From: Pseudogymnoascus verrucosus
Lineage: Eukaryota
Strand: one strand, 5' to 3'
Length of the DNA: 64,000 nucleotides
Assembly (NCBI GenBank): GCA_001662655.1
Contig: KV460212.1
Shown here: positions 56,877 to 62,380 of the stretch, in pieces
How the letters are laid out: every line of letters begins with the position of its first letter
Numbering within the stretch: the stretch's first letter is position 1
Made by a program: the position numbers and the translations under genes
Notes under the pieces: model-generated
Databases searched by the model: none
Seen by the model: the letters and a program-made list of their open reading frames with translations, nothing else
Told to the model about the DNA's origin: nothing

Positions 56877-57831
56877 AAGCAATTCAGATTCTGTGTAAAC
56901 ATCGACAGTTCCCAAAGTTCTGTATCAGTCATATGGTGTGACCATTCCTGAACACTCTTGACCCGGATACCTGGAAAATTATGTTTGTATCATCGTCGTC
57001 GCGTCTGGTTTTCAGAGAGCATTATTTCGTAGCGTAGCAGGACTCCTCTACCACAGTACTACAATCAAACTTCTACCGTTGCTGAAACCTATAAGCCATC
57101 CATATCTTACCCTCCGAGTCCTTCAGGACTACCAAGAAGTTATCGCCAGCCTTGTGGCTGCCGTGTGGCGCAAATTCATTCCATGTCGGTGTGTCGGTTG
57201 GTACCTCTAATCAAATCTTAGGTTTACTTATAGCTTAGAGTAATTTTCTTACGTAATCAACATGTAGAAAGCATGTGGCTGTGCGCCAGGTCATCACACA
57301 TTCAATAAAGTTATTCGTTAGTCCCAGGTATGTTCAGTTCTTACCGCAGATCTTGGGAATGTCTGGAATTCTTACATTATGCTCCTTCGCGCGACTTATG
57401 GAAAGTTGTGCTTCCTGGTTACGATGGTTGGGCAGTGTCGCGATTTAGCCAGCCACACAAAACGAGCGGCGTATCGCCAGCCTTACTTTGGACCAGCATT
57501 GCAACTTTCAGACCACTTATAGTAAGGATAGTGGCAACGCACCCATGCAGCTAGTGGCACTCCTGTTGCCCCCAATAAAGGGCTTGTACGGAAACTGTTT
57601 AAAGACAGCCTGCAACCTGGCTTGCCACAACGAGTTTTTCAAGCTAACTCTATCGCAAACGCTCTTGGTACTCGGCCACACCATACGAACCCACGAACCC
57701 ACAATCTGATCTGGTAGCCACGTCCGGGTACGCAAGTCCAAAAGCCGACTTTCGTGACGCTTTCAAATACTAATTAGTCGTTGTAGTATATTGCAGCCTA
57801 GATACACCCACCGAAATCGCTATCGATTGCA

Positions 57832-60800
57832 ATGTCCGGCGCTGAGGCTGCGTTCGTTGTTGGCCTCATTTCAGGCCTGATCTCGATCATCGAGGCAACT
57901 AAAACGATATATGATGCCGCTAAAGACGCGAAGGGTCAGCCCGAGGCATTTCGCCTGGTGCATGCACGACTAGTCCTAGTGATCGCAATCCTGGACAGAG
58001 CTAGAGAGAGGGCACAGATGGTCGACGAGACGACGCAGGAGACATTGGAACCCATTCTGGAATCATGCAAGGCGAAGGCTGAGAACCTCAACAAAATATT
58101 CAAGAAGGTTATTCGGAAGGATGACGACAAGTGGTACGATCGATACAAGAAAGCCCTCGGTACGCTAAGGAAAGAGTATAAAGTGGAGTGTTTAATGGAA
58201 GAGATATTGAAGGACATCCAAGTGCTTGTATGCGAGAGGCTGATGGGAACCGCTACTGATGCCCAAGTAAAGGAGATACAAGAGGCTATTAAGGAAATGA
58301 ACGAAATGCCTTCTTCTCTCCAGGACGAGGCTGGGAGTGTCACCCAAAACCATCAAGGCACTGGTAACAATAATGCTAACACTGGTAGAGGAGCCCAGCA
58401 TAATGGAATTGGGGATCTCTATCACAATGAGATCAAGGGTGACGCGCATTTTGGCAGTAAGAAATAGTATAATCCGAGACCATGTCTAGATTTGATAAAT
58501 ATGACTTAGGCAACCCCACTTTCAATAATTATGCCGCTCCTAGTGAGTTGCAAAGGGTCCAACCTAACAAGCTAGCGGGTGCTAACGACGGCCCCACCAT
58601 AGAGCGACCAGAGACCCCACCGAACCCGTCGGTCGTCATACCCTTCAGTCGCGACACAGATTTTGTCGAGCGAGGGACAATACTTGATCAGATCTACCAG
58701 AAATGCGATGTATTGGGGTCTCGGACCGCACTCGTTGGCCTGGGCGGCGTCGGGTAAGTACAAACACTTCTGCCATTGCGGGTGGCTAACGGCCGCGAAG
58801 CAAGTCGCAACTCGCCATCGAATATGCCTACCGAACCCGAGACCGATCGCTTGAAACGTGGGTTTTCTGGGTCCATGCAAGCAACACGGCTCGGTTTGAG
58901 CAGAGCTTTCGGGATATTGCAAACTGCGTCAAGATCTCCGGCCGGCAAGATCCAAAGGCCAATATATTCCAACTTGTGCACGACTGGCTGCACAACGATA
59001 GGAAAGGGCCGTGGGTCATTATACTTGATAATGTGGATGATGCTAGCTACCTCGTTGAGCGTCGAAGCACCGGTCAGGATGTGCAAAATAACGGCATAGG
59101 CAGTGGGAACTTACGACCGCTCGTGGAATATCTTCCGCAGTGCCCAAATGGATCGATTCTTATAACAACAAGAAGCAAAACTGCAGCGCTAAAGCTAGTT
59201 AAACCGCGGAACATAATCGCAATCGAACCAATGAGCCAGATAGATGCGCTAGCACTCTTTAGGAATAAGCTTGGCGGGAATGATGGTGGACATGACGCTA
59301 GCCAGCTTGTTGCAGAGCTCGAGTTTATGCCGCTTGCTATTGTTCAAGCAGCTGCATACATCTCCGAATTAGCGCCCCGATGTTCTATACGACAGTACCT
59401 TCAAATGTTTCAAAAGAGCGACAGCAAAAGATCGAGTCTCTTAGAGTACGAAGCCGAAGAGCTACAGCGAGACTCAGAGGCCAAAAACTCCATCATCATT
59501 ACATGGCAAATATCGTTCGATCATATCTGTGAGATTAGGCCGTCAGCCACTGATTTGTTGTCTCTTATGTGTTTTTTTGACCGACAAGGAATTCCTGAGG
59601 CTCTACTTCGAAGTCAAAGCGTGCAGAGCAACTCGGTGCAAGACCAGAACGAGAGCGACGGTGATAAACATGTTAATAGCGATACTAATTATGACGATGA
59701 CGGTAACGATGAAGATGACGATGAAGATAACCTAACACAGTCTAGTGTGAGTGATGGGTTTGAAAGCGATGTCGCAGTATTACGAAACTACTCGTTCGTC
59801 TCTGTCAATGCAGACGGCATAACCTTCGAAATGCACAGGCTGGTGCAGTTAGCCACGCGAAAATGGCTTGAAGCCCATGGGCAGCAAAAGAGGTGGGAAC
59901 AGCAGTTTATCAGGAATCTTAACGCGGAGCTTCCGACTGGAGAGTACGAGAATTGGGTGAGGTGTCAGACGTATTCCCCGCACGTGCAAATAGCGGCAGC
60001 ACAGAAGCCAAAGGAACAAGCCTCTTTAAGAGACTGGGCTTCGATACTATTCAAGGCAGCATGGTATGCGTGCAGAATGGAGAAAGGAATAGAGGCAGAG
60101 AAGATGTCTATTGAGGCAATGAAAGTTCGACAGAGGATTCTGAATCGAGAGCACAATGATACGCTAGAAAGTATGGCAATGGTAGGCTTAGCGTATAAGA
60201 TTAGGGGCCGATGGGATGCTGCGGAAGAGCTAGAGGTGCAAGTGATGGAGATGATGAAGGAGAAACTCGGCGAGGATCATCCACACACGCTACAGAGCAT
60301 GGGCAACCTAGCATTGACGTACGGGAATCAAGGGAAGTGGGACGCTGCGGAAGAGCTAGAGGTGCAGGTGATGGAGATGATGAAGGAGAAACTTGGCGAG
60401 GATCATCCAGACACGCTGACTAGCATGTGCAACCTAGCATTGACGTACGGGAAGCAAGGGAAGTTGGACGCTGCAGAAGAGCTAGGGGTGCAAGTGATGG
60501 AGATGATGAAGGAGAAACTCGGCGAGGATCATCCACACACGCTATGGAGCATAGGCAACCTAGCATTGACGTACGGGAAGCAAGGGAAGTTGGACGCTGC
60601 AGAAGAGCTAGGGGTGCAAGTGATGGAGATGATGAAGGAGAAACTCGGCGAGGATCATCCAGACACGCTATGGAGCATAGGCAACCTAGCATTGACGTAC
60701 GGGAATCAAGGGAAGTGGGACGCTGCGGAAGAGCTAGAGGTGCAAGTGATGGAGATGATGNNNNNNNNNNNNNNNNNNNNNNNNNNNNNNNNNNNNNNNN

Positions 60801-61107
60801 NNNNNNNNNNNNNNNNNNNNNNNNNNNNNNNNNNNNNNNNNNNNNNNNNNNNNAGATGATGAAGGAGAAACTCGGTAAGGATCATCCAGACACGCTGACT
60901 AGCATGAACAATCTAGCATTCACGTTGAAAAAAACTGGCAGAGGAACTGAAGCTGCAAGACTTATGGAAGAATGCATGCAATCAAGGAAACGTATATTAG
61001 GACTTGATCACCCAGATACCCTATCATCTTGCACATCTCTGGCTGCATGGAAGGCAGAGCAAGAGGATGTTGTATTGTCAGTCTCAGTGTTGCCAATAGT
61101 ATATTAG
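57832..61107 (+). CDS. Fungal NLR: SesA (HeLo-like) domain - sigma-like amyloid motif - NB-ARC - high-identity TPR array
   Basis: SesA start MSGAEAAFVVGLISGLISIIEATKTIYDAAKDAKG; N/G/Q-rich motif at 58339-58455; predicted introns 58457-58509, 58543-58602 and 58754-58800. P-loop GLGGVG/KSQLA, Walker B WVIILDNVDD, ILITTR, MPLAIVQAAAYI, MHRLVQ, then LGEDHPxTL..MxNLA TPRs. Assembly gap lies inside the repeats. Confidence 0.88.
60251..60920 (+). repeat. 126-bp (42-aa) TPR tandem repeats, near-identical, interrupted by a gap
   Basis: Units start at 60251, 60377, 60503, 60629 and 60755 (exact 126 spacing); the last unit resumes at about 60856. Confidence 0.95.
60761..60853. other. Assembly gap (93 N)
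   Basis: N run. Both flanks contain the same AGATGATG repeat position, consistent with collapsed repeats. Confidence 0.98.
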
Positions 61108-62380
61108 TCTTAGCAGTATATTGCAATATATATTGCAATATAGGCCTTAGCAATACAATATGGCCTTACGCCATATGACTGTAATACAATACGGCAATAT
61201 CATATGGCAATATATGGCAATATAGTGCCAAGACCTATGTGACTAATTATTACACACGTGATAGTAAATGATGACGAGAATAAGTATGTAATCTATAATA
61301 TAAGTTAAGGCTATTTGAAAACTCTAATTTAATAGTTCTATCAACAATTCAACGTCAATGCCTTTGACAAATGCAGAGTCGAGCGCCTTATCACTAATTG
61401 ATAGCGATGTTTTTCAAGACGATACTGAATTGTCACTCTCCTCACAACTGGATTCTAATAGTACTATAGTACTATCAGTTACATCAAAATCAGGGCGTTA
61501 CAAACGAACTTCATGGATTTGGCAACATGATAGGAATCCTTTAGCAACATACCAACAAAATGGGCACTCAATGTGGCAATGTTTGTATTGTACAAAGCAG
61601 TATAGAGAATCGGGTGGTACTGCAGCTCCAGCGAAACACTTGATGGATTTACACCAAGTAACAGATACTCATATACAAGTACGCAGACAATCAACAAAAG
61701 TCGAATATAGTGTATGGGCAGCAGTTGGCTGGAATTTTAAGAGCCCTTTAATATTTTACAACAAATCAGGAATACGAGGAGGGTTTACAGGTGAAGATAT
61801 CTTCAAGACTGTTTAAAGGGGTTTATTGAGCCGACTTTTGCACAAGGACATAATCGGCATCGCATTTTACAAGAAGACAATGACGGAGCACATGGCACAA
61901 AGACAAGAAATAACCAAATGCAATTTGGAAGCAAGAGCATAATCTTGAGTGCTTAAAATGGCCACCTCAAAGTCCTGACCTTTCTCCAATCGAGAATGTT
62001 TGGCGCATTCTAAAGTCGCGTGTTCGCGCACGTAATGCGCGTAATAGGGACGAGCTACGGAGCTTCATTCTTGAGGAGTGGGATATTACACAGGAGGAAA
62101 TCAATACATTGATTTTAGCAGTACCTGATCGTATGATTTCTTGTAGACTACGAGGACGATTCTCAACACCATATTAATTGTACATAGTTATTACATAGTT
62201 ACAAGCGCAAGTCGCGTATTTCAAGTGTCCGGATAATTTTTCGAACCGCCTTCGATTGTTTCTCTTCAATATATGACTGCAATATATTATATTGCCAAGC
62301 TTTATTAGCGTTATATGATTGTAATACAATATGGGAATTTCATTCCAATATATTGCCAAGACGCACTATTGGCAACACGG
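61085..62380 (+). mobile_element. Non-autonomous hAT-type DNA transposon (1296 bp) with 8-bp TSD
   Basis: TSD GTCAGTCT at 61077-61084 and 62381-62388. TIRs CAGTGTTGCCAATAGT / ACTATTGGCAACACGG, extending imperfectly to about 40 bp. Subterminal ATATTGCAATA/ATATGGCAATA repeats and an internal BED zinc finger. Confidence 0.9.
61358..62177 (+). pseudogene. Degenerate chimeric transposase: BED zinc finger + Tc1/mariner DDE C-terminal part
   Basis: SWIWQH...WQCLYC...GGTAAPAKHLMDLH (BED) runs in frame into VWAAVGWNFKSPL. After frameshifts (~61797, ~61921) come LQEDNDGAHG and WPPQSPDLSPIENVW...EEW...TPY* (TAA 62175-62177). Confidence 0.85.

What the first reader, a model, noticed from the sequence alone, without database searches (positions are those of the whole stretch)
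58339..58602. One NLR gene, up to three products: splice-encoded amyloid signalling pair (SesA effector + receptor)
Seen in sequence: the SesA exon ends ...GDAHFG-A|GTAAGA (phase-1 donor at 58457). If that intron is retained, translation reads SKK-TAG (58465-58467) and gives a 211-aa SesA protein with the amyloid-like motif at its C-terminus. If the 53-nt intron 58457-58509 is removed (only a weak TTGAT branch candidate), a 33-nt micro-exon (SNPTFNNYAAP) and a 60-nt intron (58543-58602, strong GTGAGT/GCTAAC/TAG) fuse SesA+motif in frame to NB-ARC-TPR. Skipping the micro-exon (58457 to 58602) is also in frame. An ACCATG at 58482, 14 nt after the stop and inside the first intron, is in frame with the NLR and would give an effector-less receptor. 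Established: fungal amyloid signalling (NWD2/HET-S, sigma/SesA-SesB, PP/HELLP) normally uses two adjacent genes, an NLR with an N-terminal motif and an effector with a C-terminal motif. Inference: both components could be produced here from one transcription unit by intron retention, or the locus is a fusion/fission intermediate between the two-gene and all-in-one architectures.
Basis: partly seen in the sequence, partly recalled or inferred. Interest (0 to 1): 0.88.

Follow-up and report, generated by a model that had tools for sequence, protein, structure and literature searches.

The report
Stop-bearing junction intron in fungal NLR
A fungal immune-receptor gene has, exactly between its cell-death domain with a prion-like tail and its receptor body, a short intron whose splice donor and immediate stop codon are both kept in over a hundred relatives, so the gene may make both the full receptor and a free death-domain protein.

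Summary
The gene (57832-61107, +) is a SesA / sigma-like motif / NB-ARC / TPR receptor of a Pseudogymnoascus-like fungus. Three annotated orthologues use exactly the proposed splicing.

- **Motif:** it is a diverged sigma amyloid-signalling motif. Pfam NACHT_sigma misses the window copy. It matches 6 of 29 close and 16 of 20 distant relatives at the same position.
- **Donor and stop:** of 120 listed relatives (64-94% identity), 113 end two or three residues after the motif. Their tails spell a splice donor ([A/G/T]GT-A[A/T]G) plus a stop. In 8 DNA loci the donor is 8/8 and TAG 8/8.
- **Neutral comparison:** four-fold sites are only 71% identical between pairs, so the stop is under selection.
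- **RNA:** one contig from a close relative runs unspliced through the intron, while a 5'UTR intron is spliced in the same study. No spliced junction was seen.
- **Not supported:** the effector-less receptor from ATG 58482 (ATG or frame lost in 2 of 8 loci), and a classical partner receptor with an N-terminal motif.

A fused receptor plus a free 211-aa SesA-sigma protein from one gene is plausible (about 0.45) but unproven. An ordinary all-in-one receptor with a fail-safe stop is nearly as likely.

The parts
57728..57786 (+). 5'UTR intron (59 nt, GT..AG)
   Evidence: A contig of run X2 joins 57726/7 to 57786/7. The loose end of an X4 contig resembles the upstream exon.
57832..58456 (+). Exon 1: start codon, SesA domain (57868-58227), linker, sigma-like Q/N/G-rich motif (about 58339-58455)
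   Evidence: Translation. Pfam SesA E 1.1e-33. AlphaFold2 gives helices to residue 158 and residues 171-211 below pLDDT 50. The profile alignment to sigma-positive relatives is colinear to the last residues.
58457..58509 (+). Intron 1 (53 nt, phase 1): donor GTAAGA, in-frame TAG 58465-58467, ATG 58482-58484, weak branch TTGAT 58492, acceptor TTAG
   Evidence: Sequence. Donor 8/8 and TAG 8/8 in DNA loci. 26 of 53 columns are invariant. Retained in one RNA contig of X1, 58338-58513.
58510..58542 (+). Micro-exon (33 nt), encodes SNPTFNNYAAP
   Evidence: Same peptide in orthologue P0004. An N-x-T-F/V-N core recurs in NACHT-type relatives.
58543..58602 (+). Intron 2 (60 nt, GTGAGT...CTAAC...TAG), open in frame; homology to relatives with other receptor bodies ends about here
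   Evidence: Identity of the window to NACHT-type loci falls from 0.62-0.79 in intron 1 to 0.22-0.33 in intron 2.
58603..58753 (+). Exon 3: NB-ARC leader and Walker A (GLGGVG|KS)
   Evidence: Translation. Orthologue P0004 carries PF00931.
58754..58800 (+). Intron 3 (47 nt, GTAAGT...CTAAC...AAG)
   Evidence: Sequence. Needed to join GLGGVG to KSQLAIEYAY as in P0004.
58801..61107 (+). Exon 4: rest of NB-ARC, DUF7779, TPR_10 repeats; assembly gap 60761-60853; stop TAG 61105-61107
   Evidence: TPR array of period 126 nt, 4.4 copies, 93% matches.

Best explanation
This is one transcription unit for a SesA / sigma-like motif / NB-ARC / TPR NOD-like receptor. Its first coding intron sits exactly at the end of the sigma-like motif and acts as a conserved decision point.

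- **If the intron is spliced:** with the micro-exon and intron 2, the all-in-one receptor is made.
- **If the intron is kept:** or if the transcript is ended inside it, translation stops three codons later. This gives a 211-aa SesA protein with the sigma-like motif at its C-terminus.

Both the donor and the stop are held by selection in this gene family. That argues the unspliced message is translated often enough to matter.

Most likely use (inferred): the short protein is a free effector pool. Sigma-like segments clustered on the activated receptor oligomer recruit or template it, which amplifies the SesA membrane-targeting death signal.

- **Shown:** anatomy, homology of the fused product, conservation of donor and stop, sigma relationship, one intron-retaining RNA contig in a close relative.
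- **Inferred:** translation of the short form, amyloid folding, templating.
- **Excluded:** the ATG-58482 product is not part of this explanation.
For: **Fused product**
- Orthologue models P0004 (94% identity), P0005 and P0006 read HFG|S N(..)PTFN..|E.LETPP across the same junctions.
- Relatives with NACHT-WD40 bodies keep the motif and micro-exon core.

**Donor and stop**
- Of the 120 listed near-length relatives, 105 have a three-residue tail and 8 a two-residue tail after FG. The 120 are those listed from 218 hits among 446 candidates.
- Tail position 1 is S 73, G 30, C 1 (all NGT codons).
- Tail position 2 is K 100, M 2 (AAG/ATG, that is GTAAG/GTATG).
- Tail position 3 is variable (K 63, E 16, D 7, R 5, N 5, G 5), then a stop.
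- In 8 non-redundant DNA loci the donor [A/G]GTAAG is 8/8. TAG is 8/8, at +9 in 7 loci and at +6 in L008.
- Pairwise identity at shared four-fold sites is 0.71. A neutral TAG would be lost in most lineages.

**Receptor body downstream**
- NB-ARC-TPR in the window.
- NACHT-WD40 in L001, L003/L004 and L005; NACHT in L008.
- So the 211-aa database proteins are first exons, not stand-alone genes.

**Sigma relationship**
- PF17106 matches above its cut-off in P0197, P0240, P0215 and P0230 at residues about 170-216.
- It matches 16 of 20 distant and 6 of 29 close relatives.
- hhalign gives probability 100 over 208 columns.

**RNA**
- Contigs of X2 and X4 are spliced at the 5'UTR intron.
- An X1 contig covers 58338-58513 colinearly through intron 1.

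**Precedent**
- Plant RPS4, N and RCT1 need truncated isoforms from retained introns (PMC4100160, passages).
Against: - No run is on record as RNA. The retention evidence is one assembled contig, which could be pre-mRNA or DNA carry-over. No reads were available to count junctions.
- An unspliced message with a stop followed by about 2.6 kb and two introns would be an obvious target for nonsense-mediated decay, unless it ends early.
- Pfam does not recognise the window's own motif as sigma. It carries charged residues, and amyloid formation is untested.
- The whole intron core is fairly conserved: 26/53 invariant columns against 9/31 at four-fold sites, Fisher p 0.11. Part of the TAG conservation could therefore be a nucleotide-level constraint. 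All 8 DNA copies are TAG, never TAA or TGA.
- In a fused receptor the motif could work purely in cis.
Confidence: 0.45

Rival explanations
1. This is an ordinary all-in-one SesA-NB-ARC-TPR receptor. Intron 1 is spliced constitutively, and the sigma-like segment works in cis as the linker or switch that couples NOD oligomerisation to SesA activation. The early stop is a fail-safe: it ends translation of occasional unspliced messages before a junk tail is added to a potentially toxic domain. Alternatively it is a relic or by-product of nucleotide-level signals in a short, constrained intron. The 211-aa protein has no signalling role.
For: - All-in-one SesA receptors are a described architecture (PMC3321046 and PMC5485727, passages).
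- All loci with enough flank carry a receptor body right behind the exon, except L009.
- No separate receptor with the motif at its N-terminus was found.
- Intron 1 as a whole is conserved about as well as the exon: mean pairwise identity 0.75, against codon positions 0.82, 0.87 and 0.75.
- TAG is never replaced by another stop in the 8 DNA loci.
Against: - A fail-safe does not need a fixed position. In the window the next stop in that frame is only 13 codons further on. Yet 113 of 120 relatives keep the stop at codon 3 or 4, while the codon just before it varies freely.
- The donor avoids the consensus T at +6 in nearly all relatives.
- The one RNA contig that covers the site is unspliced.
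Confidence: 0.4
2. There are two cistrons rather than one spliced gene. The SesA-sigma ORF ends at TAG 58465. The receptor is translated on its own from ATG 58482, by a second transcript start or by re-initiation. On this view the fused database models are gene-prediction artefacts.
For: - The ATG lies 14 nt after the stop and is in frame with the receptor in the window. In L008 the ORF from that ATG runs 232 residues into a NACHT domain without interruption.
- The 14 nt beginning with the ATG are the best-conserved part of the intron: 10 of 14 columns invariant, against 9/31 at four-fold sites, p 0.011.
- Several substitutions there are synonymous in the ATG frame, by my reading.
Against: - The donor is conserved at nucleotide level: AGT/GGT and AAG in 8/8 loci, and K-to-M variants that keep GTATG. 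This makes no sense for a mere C-terminal tail.
- The ATG is CTG in L007, and its frame hits TAA before the acceptor in L006.
- The base at -3 is T in most loci.
- Fourteen nucleotides leave no room for a promoter or terminator. Re-initiation after a 211-codon ORF is inefficient (general knowledge).
- Six of the 14 conserved bases are the likely branch site TTTGAC.
- Such a receptor would carry no sigma motif to talk to the SesA protein.
Confidence: 0.07
3. All three products of the first reader are made: the fused receptor, free SesA-sigma, and an effector-less receptor from ATG 58482 that acts as a regulator or decoy.
For: Same as for the best explanation, plus the conserved block around the ATG and the open ATG frame in 6 of 8 loci.
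Against: - The ATG or its frame is lost in 2 of 8 loci.
- An open frame over 9 codons is expected by chance in roughly two thirds of cases.
- No transcript or protein evidence exists.
Confidence: 0.1

Closest known systems
s locus of Nectria haematococca: SesA and SesB with C-terminal sigma motif plus the HET-eN receptor with an N-terminal sigma motif (Daskalov et al. 2012, PMC3321046, passages read)
   Same: SesA domain followed by a G/N/Q-rich sigma-type motif at the end of a roughly 210-aa ORF. The proposed use is amyloid templating between receptor and effector.
   Different: Here the motif is followed, across a stop-bearing intron, by the receptor body in the same gene. No second gene with the motif at its N-terminus was found. 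The window's motif is too diverged for Pfam NACHT_sigma.
All-in-one SesA receptors such as Podospora anserina NWD3 (PMC3321046; PMC5485727, passages)
   Same: SesA as the N-terminal effector domain fused to a NOD and repeats.
   Different: The described all-in-one form is presented as the alternative to the motif-bearing two-gene form. Here the sigma-like motif is kept inside the fused protein, and a conserved stop sits in the junction intron. I did not examine NWD3 itself.
Mid-sequence amyloid-like motifs between BaMLKL and NACHT in Fibularhizoctonia (Wojciechowski et al. 2022, PMC9815663, section 29 read)
   Same: An amyloid-like pattern placed between a HeLo/MLKL-like domain and the NOD of a receptor, alongside proteins with the pattern at a terminus.
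   Different: That case is a basidiomycete with a different motif, and gene structure or splicing was not discussed ('intron' has 0 hits in that paper). The authors considered pseudogenes.
Plant TIR-NBS-LRR genes RPS4, N and RCT1, whose retained-intron transcripts encode truncated proteins required for resistance (PMC4100160, passages read)
   Same: A receptor gene gives the full receptor and an N-terminal fragment through intron retention with an early stop.
   Different: Different kingdom, domains and intron positions. No prion-like motif is involved. In plants the function is shown by experiment; here nothing is.
HET-S / NWD2 of Podospora anserina (PMC4344463 seen in listing only; PMC5485727, passages)
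   Same: The paradigm for receptor-to-effector amyloid templating with a HeLo-family effector.
   Different: Two adjacent genes, an HRAM-type motif, and a HeLo rather than SesA domain.

Membership tests
Fungal NOD-like receptor, all-in-one SesA-NB-ARC-TPR | N-terminal SesA (PF17107) domain | tested here: met
   E 1.1e-33, residues 13-132 of P0002
Fungal NOD-like receptor, all-in-one SesA-NB-ARC-TPR | Central NB-ARC NTPase with a P-loop | tested here: met
   GLGGVG|KS is split by intron 3. DUF7779 E 4.8e-09. The 94% orthologue P0004 carries PF00931. The window pieces alone did not score NB-ARC.
Fungal NOD-like receptor, all-in-one SesA-NB-ARC-TPR | C-terminal superstructure-forming repeats | tested here: met
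   TPR_10 E 4e-64, six stretches. 126-nt tandem units at 93% matches.
Fungal NOD-like receptor, all-in-one SesA-NB-ARC-TPR | Domains joined in one mRNA | tested here: inconclusive
   Supported by orthologue models and frame logic. No junction-spanning RNA was seen.
Sigma amyloid-signalling motif (PF17106; motifs A GxGxQFN and B GGTQNINT, three repeats) | Match to the NACHT_sigma profile | tested here: not met
   No hit for P0002 at E <= 1. 6 of 29 close relatives (best E 0.00055) and 16 of 20 distant relatives match.
Sigma amyloid-signalling motif (PF17106; motifs A GxGxQFN and B GGTQNINT, three repeats) | Positional homology to sigma regions of SesA proteins | tested here: met
   hhalign A1 against A3: probability 100, colinear over 208 columns to the terminal FG.
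Sigma amyloid-signalling motif (PF17106; motifs A GxGxQFN and B GGTQNINT, three repeats) | Forms amyloid or prion-like foci | not testable with these tools
   AlphaFold2 leaves residues 171-211 below pLDDT 50. That fits a disordered tail but is no test.
Two-component amyloid signalling pair (effector with C-terminal motif plus receptor with N-terminal motif) | Effector protein ending in the motif | tested here: inconclusive
   It exists only if intron 1 is retained. The ORF and conserved stop are present. There is one retaining RNA contig.
Two-component amyloid signalling pair (effector with C-terminal motif plus receptor with N-terminal motif) | Receptor with the same motif at its N-terminus, usually encoded next door | tested here: not met
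   No second copy in the 64-kb window. The motif-only search found 5 proteins among 6 candidates, all with SesA in front (low sensitivity). The upstream neighbour in L004 is a NACHT-ANK receptor with a helical N-domain, not sigma.
HeLo/MLKL-like membrane-targeting helical bundle | Fold similarity to MLKL or HeLo N-domains | tested here: inconclusive
   Foldseek against PDB gave 0 matches at E <= 0.001. The MLKL N-domain 2msv was at rank 26, E 0.34. PigL_N/HeLo-like was a weak hit, E 0.0017.

The most novel reading that the evidence does not exclude
A whole clade of SesA-sigma receptor genes carries a conserved switch at the junction intron. The clade includes relatives annotated in Leotiomycetes, Dothideomycetes and Orbiliomycetes. 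The switch is a weakened donor, a stop at +9 and a conserved intron core that may be an intronic 3'-end signal. With it, a single gene expresses both halves of an amyloid signalling pair. The spliced receptor carries SesA-sigma at its N-terminus. Once oligomerised, it seeds the free SesA-sigma protein made from the unspliced message. This would be a one-gene version of the two-gene HET-S/NWD2 or s-locus logic. It would also be a ready route for evolutionary flips between the 'all-in-one' and 'two-gene' architectures.
Probability: 0.3. Interest if true: 0.85.

Novelty: new variant of a known kind. Interest (0 to 1): 0.6.

Why it matters
Fungal NOD-like receptors are described in two forms. Either the effector is fused to the receptor, or effector and receptor are separate and linked by an amyloid motif. 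Why both forms exist, and how lineages move between them, is an open question (PMC3321046 and PMC5485727, passages).

A junction intron that keeps both a working donor and an immediate stop right after the motif would let one gene give both forms. It would also make fusion and fission a matter of one splice site.

The idea is cheap to test by RT-PCR, 3'RACE, tagged expression, or an intron-less against a stop-less construct. Many sequenced fungi share the structure.

It also carries a practical warning. Hundreds of 'stand-alone' SesA proteins of about 210 aa in sequence databases are first exons of receptors. Surveys that sort effectors by length will therefore misclassify them; one survey kept sequences under 310 aa (PMC4518210).

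Tried and rejected
- **Whole genome:** none is held for the window. Paralogues and partner genes elsewhere in the genome could not be searched.
- **RNA:** no RNA holder is listed. The laid runs are contigs only. X1, X2 and X4 have no cover at 58514-58683 and almost none over the NB-ARC part. X2's last contig stops at 58449 and X4's at 58307.
- **Conserved RNA structure in the intron:** rejected. Consensus energy is -2.08 kcal/mol, 0 of 6 pairs are compensatory, and the single-sequence z-score is +0.62.
- **Programmed -1 frameshift into the receptor frame:** rejected by reading. That frame has TAA at 58470-58472.
- **'Intron far more conserved than the exon':** my first impression, and it did not hold.
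  - Exon third positions are 0.75 identical and the intron 0.75 (core 0.83).
  - Invariant columns are 26/53 in the intron against 9/31 at four-fold sites, p 0.11.
  - Only the 14 nt from the ATG stand out, p 0.011.
- **Classical partner:** none in the window. None turned up in the motif-only protein search (only 6 candidates). None lies upstream in L001 or L004.
- **Fold search:** gave only generic helical bundles.
- **Earlier notes of this scan:** three look-ups returned nothing.
- **Literature search:** too broad to be useful.
- **Loci dropped from the DNA counts:**
  - L002 and L004 duplicate L001 and L003 in this region.
  - In L010-L012 (49-55% identity) the frame breaks before the motif.
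  - L013 (40% identity) has a contig that ends 40 nt after the stop.
- **Intronic polyadenylation:** AAGAAA and a TAG..TATG..TTT pattern resemble yeast 3'-end signals as I recall them. This is only an idea and was not tested.
Full report
**What is there**

- An ORF starts at 57832. It encodes a SesA domain (PF17107, E 1.1e-33, residues 13-132). A helical linker follows, then a Q/N/G/H-rich stretch that ends ...HFG.
- The next base pair of codons is A|GTAAGA, a phase-1 donor at 58457. Read without splicing, it gives S-K-K and TAG (58465-58467), that is a 211-aa protein (P0002).
- Removing 58457-58509 (53 nt) joins the frame to a 33-nt micro-exon. Removing 58543-58602 (60 nt, strong signals) then joins it to an NB-ARC leader with the Walker A motif.
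- A third intron (58754-58800) splits that motif.
- The last exon carries DUF7779 and TPR_10 repeats. It holds an assembly gap (60761-60853) inside a 126-nt repeat array and ends at 61107.
- The best database relatives are Pseudogymnoascus proteins.

**The fused receptor is real by comparison**

- Three annotated orthologues (P0004 at 94%, P0005, P0006) use the same two junctions.
- More distant relatives join the same SesA-plus-motif module to NACHT-WD40 bodies. They keep an N-x-T-F/V-N core that is encoded by the micro-exon and is readable only after splicing.
- These are gene models. I saw no junction-spanning RNA.

**The motif is a diverged sigma motif**

- Pfam NACHT_sigma does not match the window protein.
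- It matches 6 of 29 members of the window's own clade (best E 0.00055) and 16 of 20 more distant SesA proteins of about 213 aa. Four of these score above the curated cut-off, at the equivalent residues of about 170-216.
- A profile-profile alignment of the two groups is colinear to the terminal FG (probability 100, 208 columns).
- Sigma was defined on SesA, SesB and HET-eN of Nectria haematococca as three repeats of GxGxQFN or GGTQNINT (PMC3321046, passages).
- AlphaFold2 gives a helical bundle to residue 158 and no confident structure for residues 171-211. Fold search was uninformative.

A near-length search gave 218 hits among 446 candidates; 120 were listed, at 64-94% identity.

- Aligned to the query, 105 of the 120 have exactly three residues after the FG, 8 have two and 2 have one. 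Five differ. The five are two spliced or re-modelled NCBI entries, two in which the stop is lost, and one deletion.
- The tails spell a donor. Position 1 is S 73, G 30, C 1 (all NGT). Position 2 is K 100, M 2 (AAG or ATG, that is GTAAG or GTATG). Position 3 is free (K 63, E 16, D 7, R 5, N 5, G 5, A 2). Then comes the stop.

A metagenome scan returned 13 loci. I dropped duplicates (L002, L004), three loci with broken frames (L010-L012) and one cut short (L013). That left 7 loci plus the window.

- The donor [A/G]GTAAG is 8/8. TAG is 8/8, at +9 in seven loci and at +6 in L008.
- Pairwise identity at shared four-fold sites averages 0.71. An unconstrained stop codon should therefore have decayed in most lineages.
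- The codon just before the stop varies in 40% of sequences, while the stop is kept in 94%.

Every locus with enough flank except L009 has a receptor body directly behind the exon: NACHT-WD40 in L001, L003/L004 and L005, and NACHT in L008. The many 211-aa 'proteins' are therefore first exons, not stand-alone genes. A stand-alone origin cannot explain the stop.

**How conserved is the intron?**

It is less extraordinary than it first looked.

- Mean pairwise identity is 0.75 (0.83 for 58457-58495). Exon codon positions give 0.82, 0.87 and 0.75, the motif region 0.65, the micro-exon 0.50 and intron 2 0.44.
- Invariant columns are 26/53 in the intron against 9/31 at four-fold sites (p 0.11). Only the 14 nt from the ATG reach 10/14 (p 0.011). 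Six of those are the probable branch site, TTTGAC in seven loci and the weaker TTGAT in the window.
- No conserved RNA fold exists.
- Homology to loci with other receptor bodies ends at about intron 2. The N-terminal module, including intron 1 and the micro-exon, therefore behaves as a portable unit.

**RNA**

- No run is on record as RNA.
- Three runs guessed to be RNA come from a 97-98% identical organism. They contain contigs spliced at a 59-nt 5'UTR intron (57728-57786), so they do hold RNA.
- One X1 contig runs colinearly from 58338 through the whole of intron 1 to 58513.
- No contig shows the 58456/58510 joint.
- This is a hint of retention, no more.

**The ATG at 58482**

- It is present in 7 of 8 loci (CTG in L007) and open into the downstream frame in 6 of 8 (TAA in L006). 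In L008 it heads an uninterrupted 232-residue ORF into NACHT.
- The context at -3 is mostly T.
- Nine open codons are expected by chance about two times in three.
- The resulting receptor would lack the sigma-like motif.

I rate this product unlikely.

**Partner search**

- There is no second copy of the motif in the window.
- A motif-only search among long proteins found 5 hits among 6 candidates, all with SesA in front (low sensitivity).
- The receptor upstream in L004 has a helical N-domain, not sigma.
- If the short protein signals, its only visible partner is the spliced product of the same gene.

**Reading**

Two explanations remain close.

- **Dual output kept by selection (0.45).** The fused receptor and a free SesA-sigma protein are both made. 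The free protein is recruited by sigma-like segments clustered on the active oligomer.
- **A plain all-in-one receptor (0.40).** The motif acts in cis, and the stop is a fail-safe or a nucleotide-level by-product.

The fixed position of the stop next to a freely varying codon, the non-consensus +6 of the donor and the unspliced contig favour the first. The second is favoured by four points: no read-level RNA, the decay risk for such a message, the invariant TAG (never TAA or TGA), and the diverged motif.

**Comparison with print**

- The two architectures, pair and all-in-one, and the idea of recurrent fusion and fission are described (PMC3321046, PMC5485727).
- SesA proteins with C-terminal motifs were collected by length under 310 aa (PMC4518210).
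- A mid-sequence amyloid-like pattern between an MLKL-like domain and NACHT was noted in one basidiomycete (PMC9815663, section 29).
- None of the passages I read mentions an intron or splicing at this junction.
  - 'intron' has 0 hits in PMC9815663, PMC4518210 and PMC4986451.
  - In PMC3321046 'splic' has 0 hits, and the single 'intron' concerns the het-eN annotation.
  - 'intron retention' has 0 hits in all 15 papers listed.
  - Searches gave nothing further.
  - I did not read supplements.
- The nearest functional precedent is in plants, where RPS4, N and RCT1 need truncated isoforms from retained introns (PMC4100160, passages).

**Verdict**

I class it as a new variant of a known kind, of moderate to high interest, and directly testable.

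Noticed in passing
window 57728-57786: A 59-nt GT..AG intron in the 5'UTR of the receptor gene, spliced out in contigs of two runs from a close relative.
   Followed up: partly
window 58482-58495: This 14-nt block inside intron 1 starts with the ATG and ends in the likely branch site. It is the best-conserved part of the intron (10 of 14 columns invariant in 8 loci). Its role beyond the branch site is unexplained. An intronic 3'-end signal is one idea.
   Followed up: partly
window 60212-60853: The TPR repeats form a 126-nt tandem array (4.4 copies, 93% matches) that runs into a 93-N assembly gap. The reading frame differs on the two sides of the gap, so the repeat number is unknown.
   Followed up: partly
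window 61328-62174: Directly downstream of the receptor gene lie fragments of a mobile element: a weak BED zinc-finger hit (E 0.00063) and the end of a DDE_3 transposase (E 9e-12).
   Followed up: partly
L004 400-3001: In a related metagenome contig a second receptor gene lies just upstream on the same strand, so the contig holds a receptor cluster. That gene has a helical N-domain, NACHT and ankyrin repeats, and no sigma motif at its start.
   Followed up: partly
L009 2444-2808: This relative has the same exon, donor, TAG and ATG. What follows is not a recognisable NOD: two open frames of about 105-118 aa without a Pfam family.
   Followed up: partly
proteins P0022 and P0030: SesA domains of the same clade are annotated as fused to a cullin domain (PF00888) instead of a NOD, without the sigma-like stretch.
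   Followed up: no
protein P0127: A natural variant in which the stop after the motif is lost and the intron is read through in frame into the micro-exon peptide.
   Followed up: no
window 58543-58602: Intron 2 is a multiple of three and has no in-frame stop, so its retention would only insert 20 residues.
   Followed up: no
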